Source of the DNA: Burkholderiales bacterium
GTDB lineage: Bacteria > Pseudomonadota > Gammaproteobacteria > Burkholderiales > Eutrophovitaceae
Direction of reading: 5' to 3'
Length of the DNA: 64,000 bases
Assembly (NCBI GenBank): GCA_035560005.1
Contig: DATMAN010000101.1
Span: 37,818-101,817, forward strand
Shown here: positions 42,425 to 44,835 of the stretch, piece by piece
Position numbering within the stretch: the first letter of the stretch is position 1
Layout of the letters: every line of letters begins with the position of its first letter
Translations under genes and position numbers: made by a program
Notes under the pieces: model-generated
Told to the model about the DNA's origin: nothing
Databases searched by the model: none
Seen by the model: the letters and a program-made list of their open reading frames with translations, nothing else

Positions 42425-44596
42425 TCAGAATGTGTAGCTGGCGGACAGTCCAAGCATGTAATTGCGCCCGGGTGCGGGCTCGTAATAGCGCCGGTTCGAT
42501 TCGTTGACGATGACCGAACCGACATACTCTTCGTCCAGCAGATTATCGATCCTCACGAACTGCGTCAGCCTCCAGCCGCCAGTGCGCTGTTCGAAACCGG
42601 CGCGCCAGTTGAAAATCGTATAGCTGTCCGCTGATTCGTCGTTAAGATCATTGGTGAACACTTCGTCTACCCACCGTCCCTCGATCGCTGTGGAAAAACC
42701 GCTCTCGGCATGCCGCCAGCGGACCTCCGCAAACGCGGTACTCTGCGGAATGCCCGGGATGCGATTGCCGGCGGGAACGGTTGCATTGGGGCCAGCCACC
42801 GAAGTGCAGAATCCAACACACGTTCCGAAGCTCGTGTCGAATTCGGCTTTGATGTACGTGTAGTTGGCGGCGGCCGAGAACCCGGCGGCAAGCTCGGAAT
42901 CCATCGCGATTTCGAAGCCTTGACGGGTCGTGCTCTCCACGTTCTGGAACACCGATCTGCCGCCCGAGTTGCTGAATACGACGATCTCGTTGTCGGTGTC
43001 GATCCTGAACAAGGCTGCGTTCAGGCGGGTGGCGTCGCCGATCAGCGCTTTCGCTCCTATCTCGAGATTGGTGCTCTCCGCCGGCTTGAGGTCGAAGTTG
43101 AACCCGTTGACCGTGGCGGAAGTCGACCGGTAGGCCAGCTCGGCGAAAGTCGGCGTCTCGAAACCCTTCCCGGCGTTGGCATAGACGTTGAGCGTGGGCG
43201 TCACTTTCAGGATCAGACCCGCGACCGGCGTGGTGTCGCGGAACTCGATGTTGCCGCTGTCGTCGCCGTTTGTGCCAGTGATGAAGAAATCCTCGGTCTT
43301 GAACTTCACGGAGGTGTGCCGAATGCCTGCATGAATGCTCCAGCGGTCGGTCAGATCGAGTTGAGTCTGCAGGAACTGATCGAAGTTGAAGACCGTGTTG
43401 TCCTCGTTGCGCACGAGCGCGCCGATGTTCCCGGCGTTATTGTCGAAAGCCCTGCGTGTTTCCTTCATTCGGTCGTAGTTCAGGCCCGCGGTAACCGCCA
43501 ACGCCATCCCTCCCACGGACATCCGGCGAGTCCATCGCCCGTCGACACCACCGAAGTCCCGATCGAGGTCAATCACCCCTCGGGGAGTGATGGAGAGAAA
43601 CTGCTGAACCGTCCGCTTGCCCGAATAGGCGAGCAGTCTGATGGAATCCTGTTCGCCGAGCCTGTGCTGCAATACCGTTCCTGCCTGCAGGTTTTCGATG
43701 CTCTTGCGGGTGTTCTGAGTCTCTGCATTGGTGCCAGCCTGGTCGCGATCCTGGGCCAGCTGCGTCTTGTCCAGACCGAGCGGGTCCTGGGTTTCGGGCT
43801 GGTTCAAGTAGTTCGTCACCAAGGTAATCTTCGTATCATCGCTTACGTCCAGACGCAGCTTTCCGTTGACCGTGTCGCGACGAGCAGCGCTGTGATCGCG
43901 GAAACCTTCTGTGGCGAAGCGCGCAGCCTCGATGACGTAGTTCACCAGCCCCATCTGCCCGCCCGCCTTCAGTCCCATGCGACTGGAGTCGAAGCTTCCG
44001 AACCACGCGGAACCGGTCAGCGTGTGTCGCTGGGGTCCATCCTCCGTGAACACGTTGATGACACCACCAGACGAATTCCCGTACAACGCAGAAAAAGGCC
44101 CGCGCATGACCTCCACGCTTCTGGCGGAGCTCAGGTCGATGTTCGCCGCCTGTCCCTGCCCGTCCGGCATCGTGAGAGGAATTCCGTCGGAGATTATCCT
44201 GATGCCCCGTACGCCGAAGGTCGAACGCGCGCCGAAGCCGCGGATCGAGATCTGCAGATCCTGGGCGTAGTTCTGGCGATTGTTGGCGACCACGCCGGGA
44301 GCCTTCACGAGTACTTCGGACAGATTGACTTGCGGCTGCTGTTCCTGGATCTGTTGCTGGCCGAAGGCGTCGACCGACACCGGCAAGTCGAAGGCGGACT
44401 GTTCGATGCGCGTCGGCGTTACCACGATCGGCGCAGTGCGCAGGGAATCCTCGGCCGTCTGTTGGGCAACCGCTGGGCATGGCGCGAGGCTGGCGGCAAT
44501 CAGCGCGATGAATACAGGACCACCGATCGATGCGGCTGACAGGTGACGAGCGGAGCCGCGCTTGGCGCGGCTTCCCTTCTGGTTGGCGGGGCTCAT
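42425..44596 (-). CDS. TonB-dependent receptor, YncD/PqqU-like (candidate PQQ receptor)
   Basis: ATG 44596, signal peptide and TonB box PIVVTPTR. The plug [44 protein letters not shown] and the C-terminus [34 protein letters not shown] resemble the YncD subfamily. The subfamily call is from memory and unverified. Confidence 0.85.
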   Translation of the reverse strand: [723 protein letters not shown]

Positions 44597-44717
44597 GTTC
44601 TCTTTCTTTCTGCTTGGTTCGGGTCTTCGTTCTGAAACGCCCGGGGACTGCGCCCCGGCGGGCGGGCCCACTTCAAGTCCGGCTCGGGCGGCGGCGCTGC
44701 ATCCGGCCCGGGCCGCC

Positions 44718-44750
44718 AAAAAAAAAGGCTGCTCGAAAGCAGCCTTTTTC
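44718..44750 (-). terminator. Stem-loop with flanking A- and T-runs after pqqA-2 (bidirectional terminator/attenuator shape)
   Basis: AAAAAAAAA-GGCTGCT-cgaa-AGCAGCC-TTTTT. On the minus strand it lies 13 nt after the pqqA-2 stop. Confidence 0.75.
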
Positions 44751-44763
44751 TGAGTACAGAAGC

Positions 44764-44835
44764 TTAGCGGTTGGCGATATACATCGTGACTTCAAAGCCA
44801 AAACGCATTTCGCTGTATTCGGGTTTGGTCCACAT
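44764..44835 (-). CDS. pqqA: Coenzyme PQQ precursor peptide PqqA (second, inverted copy)
   Basis: Hand translation [23 protein letters not shown] has the PqqA E-x3-Y signature. A GAGAGGAG SD lies upstream. Too short for the ORF track. Confidence 0.88.
   Translation of the reverse strand: MWTKPEYSEMRFGFEVTMYIANR

What the first reader, a model, noticed from the sequence alone, without database searches (positions are those of the whole stretch)
42425..44835. An orphan pqqA copy sits as a leader gene in front of a TonB-dependent receptor that resembles the PQQ importer family (YncD/PqqU)
All elements lie on the minus strand in this order: pqqA-2 (stop at 44764), a stem-loop with U-run (44718..44750), a 121-nt GC-rich leader (44597..44717), then the receptor ATG at 44596. 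This mirrors pqqA-1 / stem-loop / pqqB on the other side of the locus. The accepted interpretation of that arrangement is a partial terminator that gives excess precursor transcript. The receptor's plug motif ([44 protein letters not shown]) and C-terminus ([24 protein letters not shown]) look to me like E. coli YncD/PqqU, which was shown experimentally to import PQQ. That resemblance is from memory and must be verified. If it holds, a PQQ producer has wired a PQQ-type uptake receptor to a precursor-peptide gene. That would suggest recapture of secreted PQQ, sensing of it, or uptake of another PqqA-derived product. I am not aware of this coupling having been described.
Basis: partly seen in the sequence, partly recalled or inferred. 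Interest (0 to 1): 0.8.

Follow-up and report, generated by a model that had tools for sequence, protein, structure and literature searches.

The report
PQQ importer behind duplicated pqqA cassette
An uncultured soil-type betaproteobacterium that makes the redox cofactor PQQ keeps a second precursor-peptide gene, with its own promoter and terminator, directly in front of a PQQ-uptake receptor; related genomes conserve this layout, which suggests that making and recapturing the cofactor are switched on together.

Summary
pqqA-2 (44764..44835, minus) encodes the same 23-aa PqqA as pqqA-1. It is followed by a hairpin plus U-run (44718..44751), a 121-nt unstructured spacer, and a 723-aa TonB-dependent receptor (42425..44596).

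The receptor belongs to the YncD/PqqU family. It matches E. coli PqqU at E 3e-161, the model superposes on the PqqU-PQQ structure at TM 0.92, and all five PQQ-contacting positions are kept (F/K/R/R/R).

The layout is not a one-off. Sixteen other loci (receptors 45-72% identical) carry promoter box > pqqA-2 > terminator > PqqU inside one conserved module: pqqEDCB<pqqA-1 | TonB-peptidase-kinase-regulator>pqqA-2>PqqU.

A 17-bp palindrome (CTCATGAAAATCATGAG) lies 44-45 nt before a -10-like hexamer at both pqqA copies. In relatives without pqqA-2 it lies directly before PqqU. Two metagenomic contigs carry an in-frame PqqA::PqqU fusion.

My reading is a co-regulated produce-and-recapture module. PqqU is probably expressed by read-through of a leaky terminator, but that step is inferred and a separate promoter in the spacer is not excluded.

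PqqU in PQQ producers, and pqqU/pqq synteny in four Burkholderiales, are already published (Munder 2025). The pqqA leader cassette, the shared box and the fusion appear in none of the papers I found. This is a new variant of a known kind, of moderate interest.

The parts
44945..44961 (.). Box-2: 17-bp near-palindrome CTAATGAAAATCATGAG upstream of pqqA-2; candidate operator of the adjacent LuxR-type response regulator
   Evidence: Four matches on either strand at <=3 mismatches in the window (two are the two strands of the palindromic box-1), 0.13 expected. Present upstream of pqqA-2 in every linked locus. Found within 450 nt upstream of PqqU homologues at 0.31/kb against 0.012/kb elsewhere.
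44895..44900 (-). -10-like hexamer CAGAAT, 44 nt after box-2; inferred pqqA-2 promoter
   Evidence: A NANAAT-type hexamer starts 44-45 nt after the box in 27 of 28 box promoters, covering pqqA-1, pqqA-2, PqqU-direct and other pqqA operons. The transcription start site is not mapped.
44764..44835 (-). pqqA-2: second PQQ precursor-peptide gene, 23 aa with E16-X3-Y20
   Evidence: Translation. TIGR02107 48.7 bits, cut-off 20. Orthologues in 10 loci give pN/pS 0.14.
44718..44751 (-). Intrinsic-terminator-like hairpin plus a run of 9 U after pqqA-2
   Evidence: The 62-nt stretch folds at -24.6 kcal/mol. Conserved in 11 of 11 loci, with 3 pairs showing compensatory change. Comparable hairpins follow all pqqA-1 and pqqA-2 copies.
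44597..44717 (-). Spacer/leader between terminator and receptor start; unconserved and without significant structure
   Evidence: z 0.18. No Rfam match beyond hairpin noise. Spacers are 91-256 nt and not alignable across loci.
42425..44596 (-). PqqU/YncD-family TonB-dependent PQQ importer, 723 aa
   Evidence: NF041535 678.7 bits, next family 192. PDB 6v81/9c4o E 3e-161 over the full length. Signature residues F/K/R/R/R. AF2 model against 9c4o TM 0.92, rmsd 2.4 A.
44998..45642 (-). LuxR/NarL-type response regulator, directly upstream of box-2
   Evidence: Response_reg plus GerE domains. Orthologues at 63-87% identity sit next to the box in most box-bearing PqqU loci sampled.
45639..47399 (-). 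Membrane sensor kinase (2 TM, HAMP, PAS, HisKA_3, HATPase); probable start ATG 47399
   Evidence: Pfam domains. The translation shows MKRMSLRF... followed by a TM segment at residue 51 of the mechanical ORF. Conserved in all module loci.
47396..48376 (-). Prolyl aminopeptidase (alpha/beta hydrolase) conserved in the module
   Evidence: TIGR01249 300.6 bits, cut-off 259.75. Homologues at 52-55% identity by tblastn in six loci and the same Abhydrolase-type gene by Pfam in the others.
48373..49779 (-). TonB paralogue (N-terminal TM, long Pro-rich spacer, TonB_C); probable start ATG 49761
   Evidence: TonB_C E 2.6e-18. Sequence. A gene occupies this position in relatives, with a TonB_C hit in L166 and L167.
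49812..49828 (.). Box-1: perfect palindrome CTCATGAAAATCATGAG in the divergent tonB / pqqA-1 intergenic region
49874..49879 (+). -10-like GAGAAT, 45 nt after box-1; inferred pqqA-1 promoter
49988..50059 (+). pqqA-1: first gene of pqqABCDE
   Evidence: It differs from pqqA-2 at 4 nucleotides only.
50078..50110 (+). Hairpin plus U-run between pqqA-1 and pqqB
   Evidence: The 62-nt stretch folds at -33 kcal/mol, z -4.8. The pqqA-1 stop to pqqB start distance is 71 nt.
50131..53201 (+). pqqB (50131..51045), pqqC (51042..51794), pqqD (~51734..52072), pqqE (52032..53201)
   Evidence: Pfam Lactamase_B_2, PQQC/TENA, PqqD, and Radical_SAM plus SPASM.
39183..39725 (-). Cytochrome b561 gene, same orientation as PqqU. 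It follows PqqU in most relatives sampled, directly in several; here a convergent TonB-dependent receptor lies between.
   Evidence: Ni_hydr_CYTB E 2.5e-38. Synteny in L163-L169 and L171.

Best explanation
This is a co-regulated produce-and-recapture module for the cofactor PQQ.

The receptor is a PqqU-type outer-membrane importer. It brings PQQ that has leaked out of the cell, or was made by neighbours, back into the periplasm, probably energised by the TonB paralogue encoded in the same module.

In front of it sits a duplicated pqqA expression cassette: the palindromic box, a promoter, a functional pqqA gene and an intrinsic terminator. Both pqqA promoters carry the same box at the same distance from a -10-like element. 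The box is most likely the binding site of the adjacent LuxR-type response regulator, which is controlled by the membrane PAS kinase. One signal would therefore switch on precursor supply (two pqqA genes), the pqqBCDE enzymes and the importer.

Most transcripts would stop at the hairpin after each pqqA, giving abundant precursor mRNA. A minority would read through, into pqqBCDE at copy 1 and into pqqU at copy 2, giving low receptor expression.

Shown here: the identities of the parts, their conservation, the shared promoter architecture, and purifying selection on pqqA-2.

Inferred: that the regulator binds the box, that read-through expresses pqqU, and that PQQ is the transported ligand.
For: Receptor identity:
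- Searches place it in the PqqU family. All five PQQ-contacting positions of E. coli PqqU are kept; Y99 is F, which Munder et al. accept.

Conservation:
- Box > pqqA-2 > hairpin > PqqU occurs in 16 other loci. These are 6 of 80 GTDB species loci, 1 of 80 metagenome loci, and 9 loci from targeted look-ups of seven homologues (53-72% identity), all seven of which carry it.
- The whole module is syntenic.
- In the NJ tree, all 12 assessable members of the window's receptor clade are linked or fused; the 13th, L163, cannot be assessed because its contig ends at the gene.

pqqA-2 is a working gene:
- pN/pS is 0.14, and copy-specific codons are shared across genomes, so the duplication is old.

Shared regulation:
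- The box plus a 44-45 nt gap plus NANAAT occurs in 27 of 28 promoters of pqqA-1, pqqA-2 and other pqqA operons. It also lies directly before PqqU, after the regulator gene, in L013, L015, L022 and L094, which have no pqqA-2.
- No box lies between pqqA-2 and PqqU in linked loci.
- The box is enriched 26-fold upstream of PqqU.

Read-through is plausible:
- The pqqA-1 stop to pqqB start distance is 63-107 nt and is mostly hairpin. pqqBCDE must therefore be expressed through an equivalent terminator.
- In L010, PqqU lies downstream of pqqABCDE in the same orientation.
- Two diverged contigs carry an in-frame PqqA(1-21)::PqqU fusion. It keeps the pqqA-2 5' region and has lost the terminator, so transcription and translation starting at pqqA-2 can serve PqqU.

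Literature:
- Producers also encode PqqU and recapture has been proposed (PMC12124388).
- PqqU imports PQQ in the producer P. aeruginosa (10.64898/2026.04.27.721047).
Against: - There are no transcript data.
- The pqqA-2 terminators have long, uninterrupted U-tracts and look at least as strong as the pqqA-1 ones. L167 has two terminators in tandem.
- Spacers of 91-256 nt are unconserved, and several contain TAGAAT/CAGAAT hexamers 23-80 nt before the receptor start. These could be independent promoters.
- In P. aeruginosa pqqU is low, constitutive and unlinked to pqq, so co-regulation is not a general property of PqqU.
- Assigning the box to the adjacent regulator rests on co-occurrence only. 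The box matches the Fur consensus at 12-13 of 19 positions.
- The receptor scores below the strict NCBIfam equivalog cut-off (678.7 against 1200).
Confidence: 0.6

Rival explanations
1. Adjacent but transcriptionally independent. pqqA-2 is simply an extra precursor gene, like the orphan pqqA copies of methylotrophs, whose transcript ends at an efficient terminator. pqqU is transcribed from its own promoter in the spacer, possibly constitutively. The order is conserved only because the whole locus is conserved.
For: - The pqqA-2 terminators have perfect U-tracts of 7-9, and L167 has two in tandem.
- TAGAAT/CAGAAT -10-like hexamers occur in several spacers.
- Spacers reach up to 256 nt.
- P. aeruginosa pqqU is constitutive.
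- Multiple pqqA copies that boost precursor supply are known (PMC11317620 and PMC4109929).
Against: - No sequence block is conserved in the spacers.
- Relatives without pqqA-2 put the same box-promoter directly before PqqU, so PqqU belongs to the box regulon.
- The linked loci have lost any box of their own before PqqU.
- The in-frame fusion shows expression from pqqA-2 signals.
- pqqA-2 is retained before the receptor even where the receptor belongs to a different PqqU clade.
Confidence: 0.28
2. The palindrome is an iron (Fur-type) box. The receptor is an iron-regulated transporter, so the link to pqqA would reflect iron control rather than a PQQ regulon.
For: - The core AATGAAAATCAT differs from the Fur core AATGATAATCAT at one base.
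- The box matches the 19-bp Fur consensus at 12-13 positions.
- TonB-dependent receptors are often Fur-regulated (general knowledge).
- An iron-uptake island lies next door.
Against: - Scores of 12-13 of 19 are at the noise level of the window. Better Fur-like boxes of a different form lie before the iron genes at 30786-31205 and 33455-33479.
- The outer CTC/GAG positions, which are not part of the Fur consensus, are the conserved ones.
- The box sits about 53 nt upstream of the -10-like element, an activator position rather than a position overlapping the promoter.
- It precedes pqqA operons and travels with the LuxR-type regulator gene.
- pqqU of P. aeruginosa is not iron-regulated.
Confidence: 0.06
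3. pqqA-2 is a regulatory leader in the attenuation sense. Its translation, or capture of the nascent peptide by PqqD/PqqE, modulates terminator formation, so that receptor expression reports the state of the biosynthetic pathway.
For: - A short ORF is followed within 14-25 nt by a terminator and then by the regulated gene.
- The peptide sequence is under strong constraint.
Against: - No alternative anti-terminator pairing is conserved.
- The same ORF-hairpin design occurs at pqqA-1, where differential mRNA abundance is the usual explanation (my own knowledge of M. extorquens and K. pneumoniae pqq transcripts; I found no paper on this in the library).
- The constraint on the peptide is explained by its role as PQQ precursor.
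Confidence: 0.04
4. The receptor imports something other than free PQQ, for example a PQQ-metal complex or another PqqA-derived product.
For: - Specificity of TonB-dependent transporters is hard to read from sequence.
- Munder et al. propose metal co-transport for K274E variants.
- The clade-B linked receptors carry K274R.
Against: - The window receptor keeps K274 and all the other contacts.
- The model superposes on the PQQ complex.
- No additional biosynthetic genes for another product are present in the module.
Confidence: 0.04

Closest known systems
E. coli PqqU (YncD), the TonB-dependent PQQ importer (PDB 6v81, 9c4o; Munder et al. 2025, PMC12124388)
   Same: Same family and fold, about 42-47% identity over the full length. 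The PQQ-contacting residues Y99(F), K274, R304, R365 and R536 are conserved.
   Different: E. coli does not make PQQ, and its pqqU is not linked to pqq genes. Here the importer sits in a PQQ producer, inside the biosynthetic locus, behind a pqqA cassette.
pqqU/pqq-operon synteny in four Burkholderiales genomes (Munder et al. 2025, fig. S11)
   Same: The importer lies next to PQQ biosynthesis genes in Burkholderiales, and co-regulation is suggested. Loci L010 and L026 here look like that type.
   Different: That report describes the same gene orientation and mentions no second pqqA. Here pqqU is divergent from pqqBCDE and is preceded by its own pqqA, terminator and box. A two-component system, a TonB paralogue and a peptidase lie between.
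pqqA-hairpin-pqqB arrangement of pqq operons
   Same: A short precursor gene is followed by a terminator-like hairpin and then by the downstream genes. The design is identical at pqqA-1 in this window and in all relatives.
   Different: The downstream gene is a transporter, not a biosynthetic enzyme. The U-tract is cleaner, and the spacer is longer (91-256 nt against 63-107 nt).
Orphan or multiple pqqA copies of methylotrophs (Methylovorus MP688, M. extorquens pqqA2/3, Methylophilaceae with 3-12 copies)
   Same: Extra functional pqqA genes exist outside the pqqBCDE operon, and precursor supply can be rate-limiting.
   Different: None of the papers I found describes such a copy as sitting in front of a PQQ importer. 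Here the copy is positionally fixed and shares the operon's operator.
P. aeruginosa PqqU (PA2289) (bioRxiv 10.64898/2026.04.27.721047)
   Same: It is a PQQ producer that also imports PQQ through a PqqU homologue.
   Different: There pqqU is unlinked, low and constitutive. Here it sits in an apparently regulated module.
Siderophore biosynthesis-receptor clusters (for example pyoverdine/FpvA); analogy only
   Same: Both follow the logic of co-regulating synthesis of a secreted small molecule with the TonB-dependent receptor that recovers it.
   Different: PQQ is a cofactor used in the periplasm, not a metal chelator made for export. No sigma/anti-sigma signalling domain is present on the receptor.

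Membership tests
PqqU/YncD PQQ importers (as defined by Munder et al. 2025) | TonB-dependent transporter architecture: plug domain plus 22-strand barrel | tested here: met
   Pfam Plug 70.6 bits and TonB_dep_Rec_b-barrel 181.5 bits. The AF2 model has mean pLDDT 77.7, pTM 0.80, and a barrel with a plug.
PqqU/YncD PQQ importers (as defined by Munder et al. 2025) | Full-length homology to E. coli PqqU, clearly above other transporter subfamilies | tested here: met
   6v81/9c4o E 3e-161 over residues 64-723; the next PDB hit is E 5.6e-16. NF041535 scores 678.7 bits against 192 for the next family.
PqqU/YncD PQQ importers (as defined by Munder et al. 2025) | Signature residues Y/F/W99, R304 and R365, plus the semi-conserved K274 and R536 | tested here: met
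   F, R, R, K, R in the MAFFT alignment with E. coli residues 36-699. The criteria are taken from PMC12124388.
PqqU/YncD PQQ importers (as defined by Munder et al. 2025) | Structure superposes on the PqqU-PQQ complex | tested here: met
   Foldseek top hits are 9c4o (TM 0.92, rmsd 2.4 A, E 7e-74) and 6v81 (TM 0.94). The next hit is FecA at E 1e-41 and 18% identity.
PqqU/YncD PQQ importers (as defined by Munder et al. 2025) | Binds and imports PQQ | not testable with these tools
   Needs binding or growth-rescue assays.
NCBIfam NF041535 TonB_rec_PqqU (strict equivalog naming model) | Whole-protein score at or above the curated cut-off of 1200 bits | tested here: not met
   678.7 bits. This is an annotation threshold tuned to close, enterobacterial-type orthologues, not a biochemical feature. 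An automatic pipeline would therefore not name this protein PqqU.
PqqA precursor peptide (TIGR02107 / PF08042), for pqqA-2 | Match above cut-off and the conserved E-X3-Y cross-link motif | tested here: met
   48.7 bits against a cut-off of 20. EVTMY is present. pN/pS is 0.14 among 10 orthologues.
PqqA precursor peptide (TIGR02107 / PF08042), for pqqA-2 | Is converted to PQQ by PqqBCDE | not testable with these tools
   The peptide is identical to pqqA-1, so it is chemically equivalent. The contribution of each copy needs deletions.
Rho-independent (intrinsic) terminator | G+C-rich hairpin immediately followed by a U-tract | tested here: met
   The simple scan missed it.
Rho-independent (intrinsic) terminator | Terminates transcription, and with what efficiency (partial or complete) | not testable with these tools
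   Needs Term-seq, northern blots or reporter assays.
Regulon of the adjacent LuxR/NarL-type two-component system | The regulator binds the 17-bp palindrome and activates the promoters | not testable with these tools
   Only co-occurrence and fixed spacing are shown.
Fur regulon | Good match to the Fur box, overlapping the promoter | tested here: inconclusive
   12-13 of 19 matches, at the noise level of the window. The position is about 53 nt upstream of the -10-like hexamer. Iron genes in the same window carry different, better boxes.

The most novel reading that the evidence does not exclude
The module is a PQQ-responsive autoinduction circuit. PQQ brought into the periplasm by PqqU, or made by the cell, is sensed by the periplasmic domain of the PAS kinase. 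The regulator then activates both box promoters, raising precursor supply and, by read-through of the pqqA-2 terminator, the importer itself. PQQ would thus act as a shared public-good signal, and pqqA-2 would act as the gain-setting leader of the receptor. In the fused PqqA::PqqU lineage, the precursor sequence has been absorbed into the receptor's signal peptide.
Probability: 0.12. Interest if true: 0.75.

Novelty: new variant of a known kind. Interest (0 to 1): 0.5.

Why it matters
Why PQQ producers keep a high-affinity importer, and how pqqU is regulated, are open questions. In P. aeruginosa it appears constitutive, and its authors invoke unknown mechanisms.

This module offers a concrete, testable regulon: a defined 17-bp operator, a candidate kinase/regulator pair, a dedicated TonB, and a built-in ratio device (gene plus terminator). 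That device would couple precursor supply, enzyme levels and recapture.

There is also a practical point. pqqA is too short for gene callers: only one of the fetched loci had it called (L172). As a result, the pqqA-to-receptor link is invisible in standard annotation and in protein-based synteny surveys.

Tried and rejected
- Metagenome scan with the single receptor. Only one new linked locus (L088) came from it.
- Search with the 73-aa N-terminus of the fusion protein, to find more PqqA::receptor fusions. The word index gave a single irrelevant candidate, so the search was uninformative.
- Literature search for pqqA hairpin or partial termination. It returned nothing relevant, so the statement about pqqA/pqqB differential transcripts rests on my own knowledge.
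- Rfam at permissive thresholds on both pqqA regions. Only sub-threshold hits to the hairpins appeared. A riboswitch or known sRNA in the leader is rejected.
- Structured leader. The 124-nt spacer folds no better than shuffles, so this is rejected.
- MAFFT pairwise alignment of the two pqqA upstream regions. It inserted a 25-nt gap that hid the fixed box-to-(-10) spacing; anchoring on the box corrected this.
- Fur-box reading of the palindrome. It was examined and kept only as a minor rival.
- First NJ tree on all 170 receptors timed out. It was rerun on 94 sequences.
- The sigma-70 and terminator consensus scan found no promoter and did not flag either pqqA hairpin, so it was not useful here.
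- A fold prediction for the kinase's periplasmic sensor domain was considered. It was not run because it would not change the verdict.

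
Full report
**1. What is in the sequence**

On the minus strand, 44764..44835 encodes [23 protein letters not shown]. 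This is identical to the product of pqqA-1 at 49988..50059 on the plus strand. It is a bona fide PqqA, scoring 48.7 bits against TIGR02107 with a cut-off of 20.

Fourteen nucleotides after the stop codon begins a hairpin at 44718..44751. It has a G/C-rich stem extended by A-U pairs, a UUCG loop and nine U. The 62-nt stretch folds at -24.6 kcal/mol.

The 121 nt that follow are G+C-rich but fold no better than shuffles (z 0.18). They match no Rfam family.

The ATG at 44596 opens a 723-aa TonB-dependent receptor that ends at 42425.

On the other side of the locus, pqqA-1 is followed by a comparable hairpin (62-nt stretch -33 kcal/mol). pqqB starts only 71 nt after the pqqA-1 stop, and pqqC, pqqD and pqqE follow.

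**2. The receptor is a PqqU**

- Its best NCBIfam model is NF041535 TonB_rec_PqqU, aligned end to end at 678.7 bits. The next family reaches 192 bits.
- Against solved structures, it matches E. coli YncD (6v81) and the PQQ-bound PqqU (9c4o) at E about 1e-161 over residues 64-723. The next hit is at E 5.6e-16.
- Munder et al. 2025 define PqqU operationally by Y/F/W99, R304 and R365, with K274 and R536 semi-conserved (PMC12124388). The window protein has F, R, R, K and R at these positions.
- An AlphaFold2 model (pLDDT 77.7, pTM 0.80) superposes best on 9c4o (TM 0.92, rmsd 2.4 A) and 6v81. The next hit is FecA at 18% identity.

One negative result: the score is below NCBIfam's strict equivalog cut-off of 1200 bits. 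Automatic annotation would therefore call it only a TonB-dependent receptor. Transport of PQQ itself is inferred.

**3. The arrangement is conserved**

Sampling:
- Eighty PqqU-family loci came from GTDB species genomes and eighty from metagenomes. I scanned these in six frames for PqqA.
- Seven homologues at 53-72% identity were looked up individually.

Results:
- A pqqA lies directly upstream of the receptor on the same strand in 16 loci besides the window: L001, L002, L033, L034, L037, L055, L088 and L164-L172.
- All seven targeted homologues whose upstream DNA was available carry it.
- In the long contigs the whole module is syntenic: pqqE-D-C-B < pqqA-1 | TonB-like > prolyl aminopeptidase > PAS kinase > LuxR-type regulator > pqqA-2 > PqqU.
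- The hairpin plus U-run after pqqA-2 is present in 11 of 11 aligned loci, with compensatory changes at three pairs.

pqqA-2 is not decaying:
- Among ten orthologues pN/pS is 0.14.
- The two copies carry copy-specific synonymous codons, and often a copy-specific C-terminus (YVFNR against YIANR), shared across genomes. The duplication is therefore old.
- In the window itself the two copies differ at only 4 nt, which suggests recent gene conversion.

Tree of 94 receptors:
- All 12 assessable members of the window's clade are linked or fused. The thirteenth, L163, ends at the contig edge.
- A second, separate PqqU clade also contains linked members (L033, L034, L037, L055). Their flanking regulators are 75-87% identical to the window's, but their receptors are only 45-47% identical.
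- The slot behind pqqA-2 has therefore been kept even where the receptor lineage differs.

**4. A shared operator-promoter**

- Both pqqA copies of the window are preceded by the palindrome CT(C/A)ATGAAAATCATGAG, at 44945..44961 and 49812..49828. At up to 3 mismatches there are four strand-level matches, two of them the two strands of the perfect box-1 palindrome, where 0.13 are expected.
- When 28 promoters are anchored on the box, a NANAAT-type hexamer begins 44-45 nt after it in 27 of them. This holds for pqqA-2 promoters, pqqA-1 promoters, pqqA operons of other genomes (L010, L026, L022) and PqqU-direct promoters.
- In L013, L015, L022 and L094 the regulator gene is followed by the box and then by PqqU, with no pqqA in between.
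- Over all 163 evaluable loci, the box (up to 3 mismatches) occurs within 450 nt upstream of the receptor in 23. That is 0.31 per kb, against 0.012 per kb elsewhere.
- The linked loci have no box between pqqA-2 and PqqU.

PqqU and pqqA therefore belong to one cis-regulatory family. Three architectures place PqqU under it:
- box > PqqU;
- box > pqqABCDE ... PqqU (L010, probably the type in Munder's fig. S11);
- box > pqqA-2 > terminator > PqqU.

Between the box and the -10-like hexamer, the pqqA-2 promoters resemble the pqqA-1 promoters (ATTtcaGgGtTTTc) more than the PqqU-direct ones. This points to duplication of a whole pqqA cassette.

The natural candidate for the box-binding protein is the adjacent regulator, but this rests on co-occurrence only.

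The box matches the Fur consensus at 12-13 of 19 positions. I regard a Fur reading as unlikely for four reasons:
- That score is at the noise level of the window.
- Better Fur-like boxes of a different form precede the iron genes at about 30.8-31.2 kb and 33.46 kb.
- The conserved outer CTC/GAG positions are not part of the Fur consensus.
- The site lies about 53 nt upstream of the -10-like element.

**5. How the receptor is expressed: the inferred step**

For read-through:
- pqqBCDE lie 63-107 nt behind pqqA-1 in all genomes, and that gap is mostly hairpin. These terminators must therefore be leaky.
- The linked loci have no box of their own before PqqU.
- The spacers are unconserved.
- Two diverged contigs from different samples (L081, L082) carry an in-frame fusion of pqqA codons 1-21 to the hydrophobic core of the PqqU signal peptide. 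The fusion retains the pqqA-2 5' region, including the CAGAAC hexamer, and has lost the terminator and spacer. In that lineage at least, expression signals of pqqA-2 serve PqqU.

Against read-through:
- The pqqA-2 U-tracts are cleaner than those of pqqA-1.
- L167 has two terminators in tandem.
- Several spacers contain TAGAAT/CAGAAT hexamers, and some spacers reach about 250 nt.

I put about 0.6 on the co-regulated read-through model and about 0.3 on an independent promoter.

**6. Comparison with what is known**

- PqqU is an experimentally established PQQ importer in E. coli and in the producer P. aeruginosa. In P. aeruginosa it is low, constitutive and unlinked to pqq.
- Munder et al. report that 23% of PqqU owners also make PQQ. 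They find that synteny is generally absent, but that four Burkholderiales genomes show pqqU/pqq synteny, which they say indicates co-regulation (the fig. S11 legend is).
- Orphan pqqA copies are well known in methylotrophs.

None of the papers I found describes the following:
- a pqqA cassette fixed in front of pqqU;
- the shared palindromic operator;
- the accompanying two-component system, TonB and peptidase set;
- the PqqA::PqqU fusion.

A likely reason is that gene callers skip the 23-codon gene. Only one fetched locus had pqqA called (L172).

**7. Verdict**

The finding is real and its central identification is right.

It is a new variant of a known kind, PQQ importers and pqq operons, rather than a new kind of system. 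Interest is moderate (0.5). It gives the field a concrete regulon to test. The fusion and a possible PQQ-sensing feedback loop are the more adventurous readings.

Noticed in passing
L081 4147-6291; L082 186-2330: In-frame fusion of pqqA codons 1-21 to the PqqU signal-peptide core (MW[AG]KPEYT[DN]MR[FI]GFEVTMY[IV]A-LVLGGPIVAMSPVNAQ...). It occurs in two diverged contigs from different samples, with no pqq operon nearby. The pqqA-2 5' region is retained, the box is degenerate, and the terminator is deleted. Whether the PqqA-derived segment is only a signal-peptide n-region is unknown.
   Followed up: partly
window 47396..48376 (minus): A prolyl aminopeptidase (TIGR01249, above cut-off) is conserved in every copy of the module, between the TonB paralogue and the kinase. 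It may take part in PqqA processing or peptide clearance, since PqqA has a conserved K-P near its N-terminus. Its function is unknown.
   Followed up: no
window 48373..49779 (minus): A TonB paralogue with a very long Pro-rich spacer starts about 35-50 nt from box-1 and is divergent from pqqA-1. It may be a dedicated energiser for PqqU. The palindromic box may also control this four-gene operon, whose stop and start codons overlap at each junction.
   Followed up: partly
window 49988..50059 vs 44764..44835: The two pqqA copies differ at 4 nt in the window, against 7-12 nt in other genomes. Window pqqA-1 carries the codon pattern typical of pqqA-2 elsewhere, which suggests recent gene conversion from copy 2 to copy 1.
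   Followed up: partly
L009 7822, L017 7831, L029 7835, L098 6885, L132 6796: Three-mismatch variants of the box (for example ATCATGAAAACCATTAG, TTCATGAAAATCATTAT) lie 115-205 nt upstream of PqqU homologues that have no adjacent regulator or pqq genes. These include a Methylophilaceae genome. The operator may be much more widespread than the module.
   Followed up: partly
window 39183..39725 (minus); L164 10202-10744, L166 11321-11872, L167 11260-11808, L169 10282-10821: A cytochrome b561 (Ni_hydr_CYTB) gene follows PqqU in the same orientation in most relatives sampled. In the window a convergent TonB-dependent receptor has been inserted between them. Its link to PQQ is unknown.
   Followed up: partly
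window 39576..42371 (plus): The mechanical 931-aa ORF of the second TonB-dependent receptor overlaps the cytochrome b561 gene, and its Plug domain starts at residue 221. The true start is probably about 170 codons later; the homologue in L163 is 761 aa.
   Followed up: no
window 30786..31205 and 33455..33479: Classical Fur-like boxes (for example GATAATGAGTCTCATT) precede a third TonB-dependent receptor (31232..33388) and an FTR1-cytochrome c gene (33501..35414). An iron-uptake island (SBP, permease, ATPase, receptors) lies between PqqU and gyrA. It is absent at this position in L164, L166 and L167, but L171 and L172 carry a similar one.
   Followed up: partly
L055 4255-4420: Two tandem pqqA genes, 22 nt apart ([23 protein letters not shown] and [23 protein letters not shown]), precede the terminator and PqqU.
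   Followed up: no
L167 7810-7880: Two terminator-like hairpins lie in tandem between pqqA-2 and PqqU, followed by a GCTAGAAT motif 42 nt before the receptor start. This is the strongest hint of an independent pqqU promoter in some lineages.
   Followed up: partly
L001 7790-7820, L002, L033, L088, L166, L167 (pqqA-2 5'UTR): A conserved block, CCATGGTCGTGATGA(G/A)CGGCCTCGATGC, lies in the presumed 5'UTR of pqqA-2 in one subgroup. It is absent from the window and from the pqqA-1 leaders. Its function is unknown.
   Followed up: no
L170 15439-16518: A YncE-like beta-propeller gene lies near PqqU and cytochrome b561 in one relative. In E. coli, as I recall, yncE is the divergent neighbour of yncD (pqqU).
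   Followed up: no
window 45639..47549 (minus): The kinase ORF is over-extended. The likely start is ATG 47399 (MKRMSLRF...), which overlaps the peptidase stop. A periplasmic segment of about 120 aa between the two TM helices matches no Pfam family, so the sensed signal is unknown.
   Followed up: no
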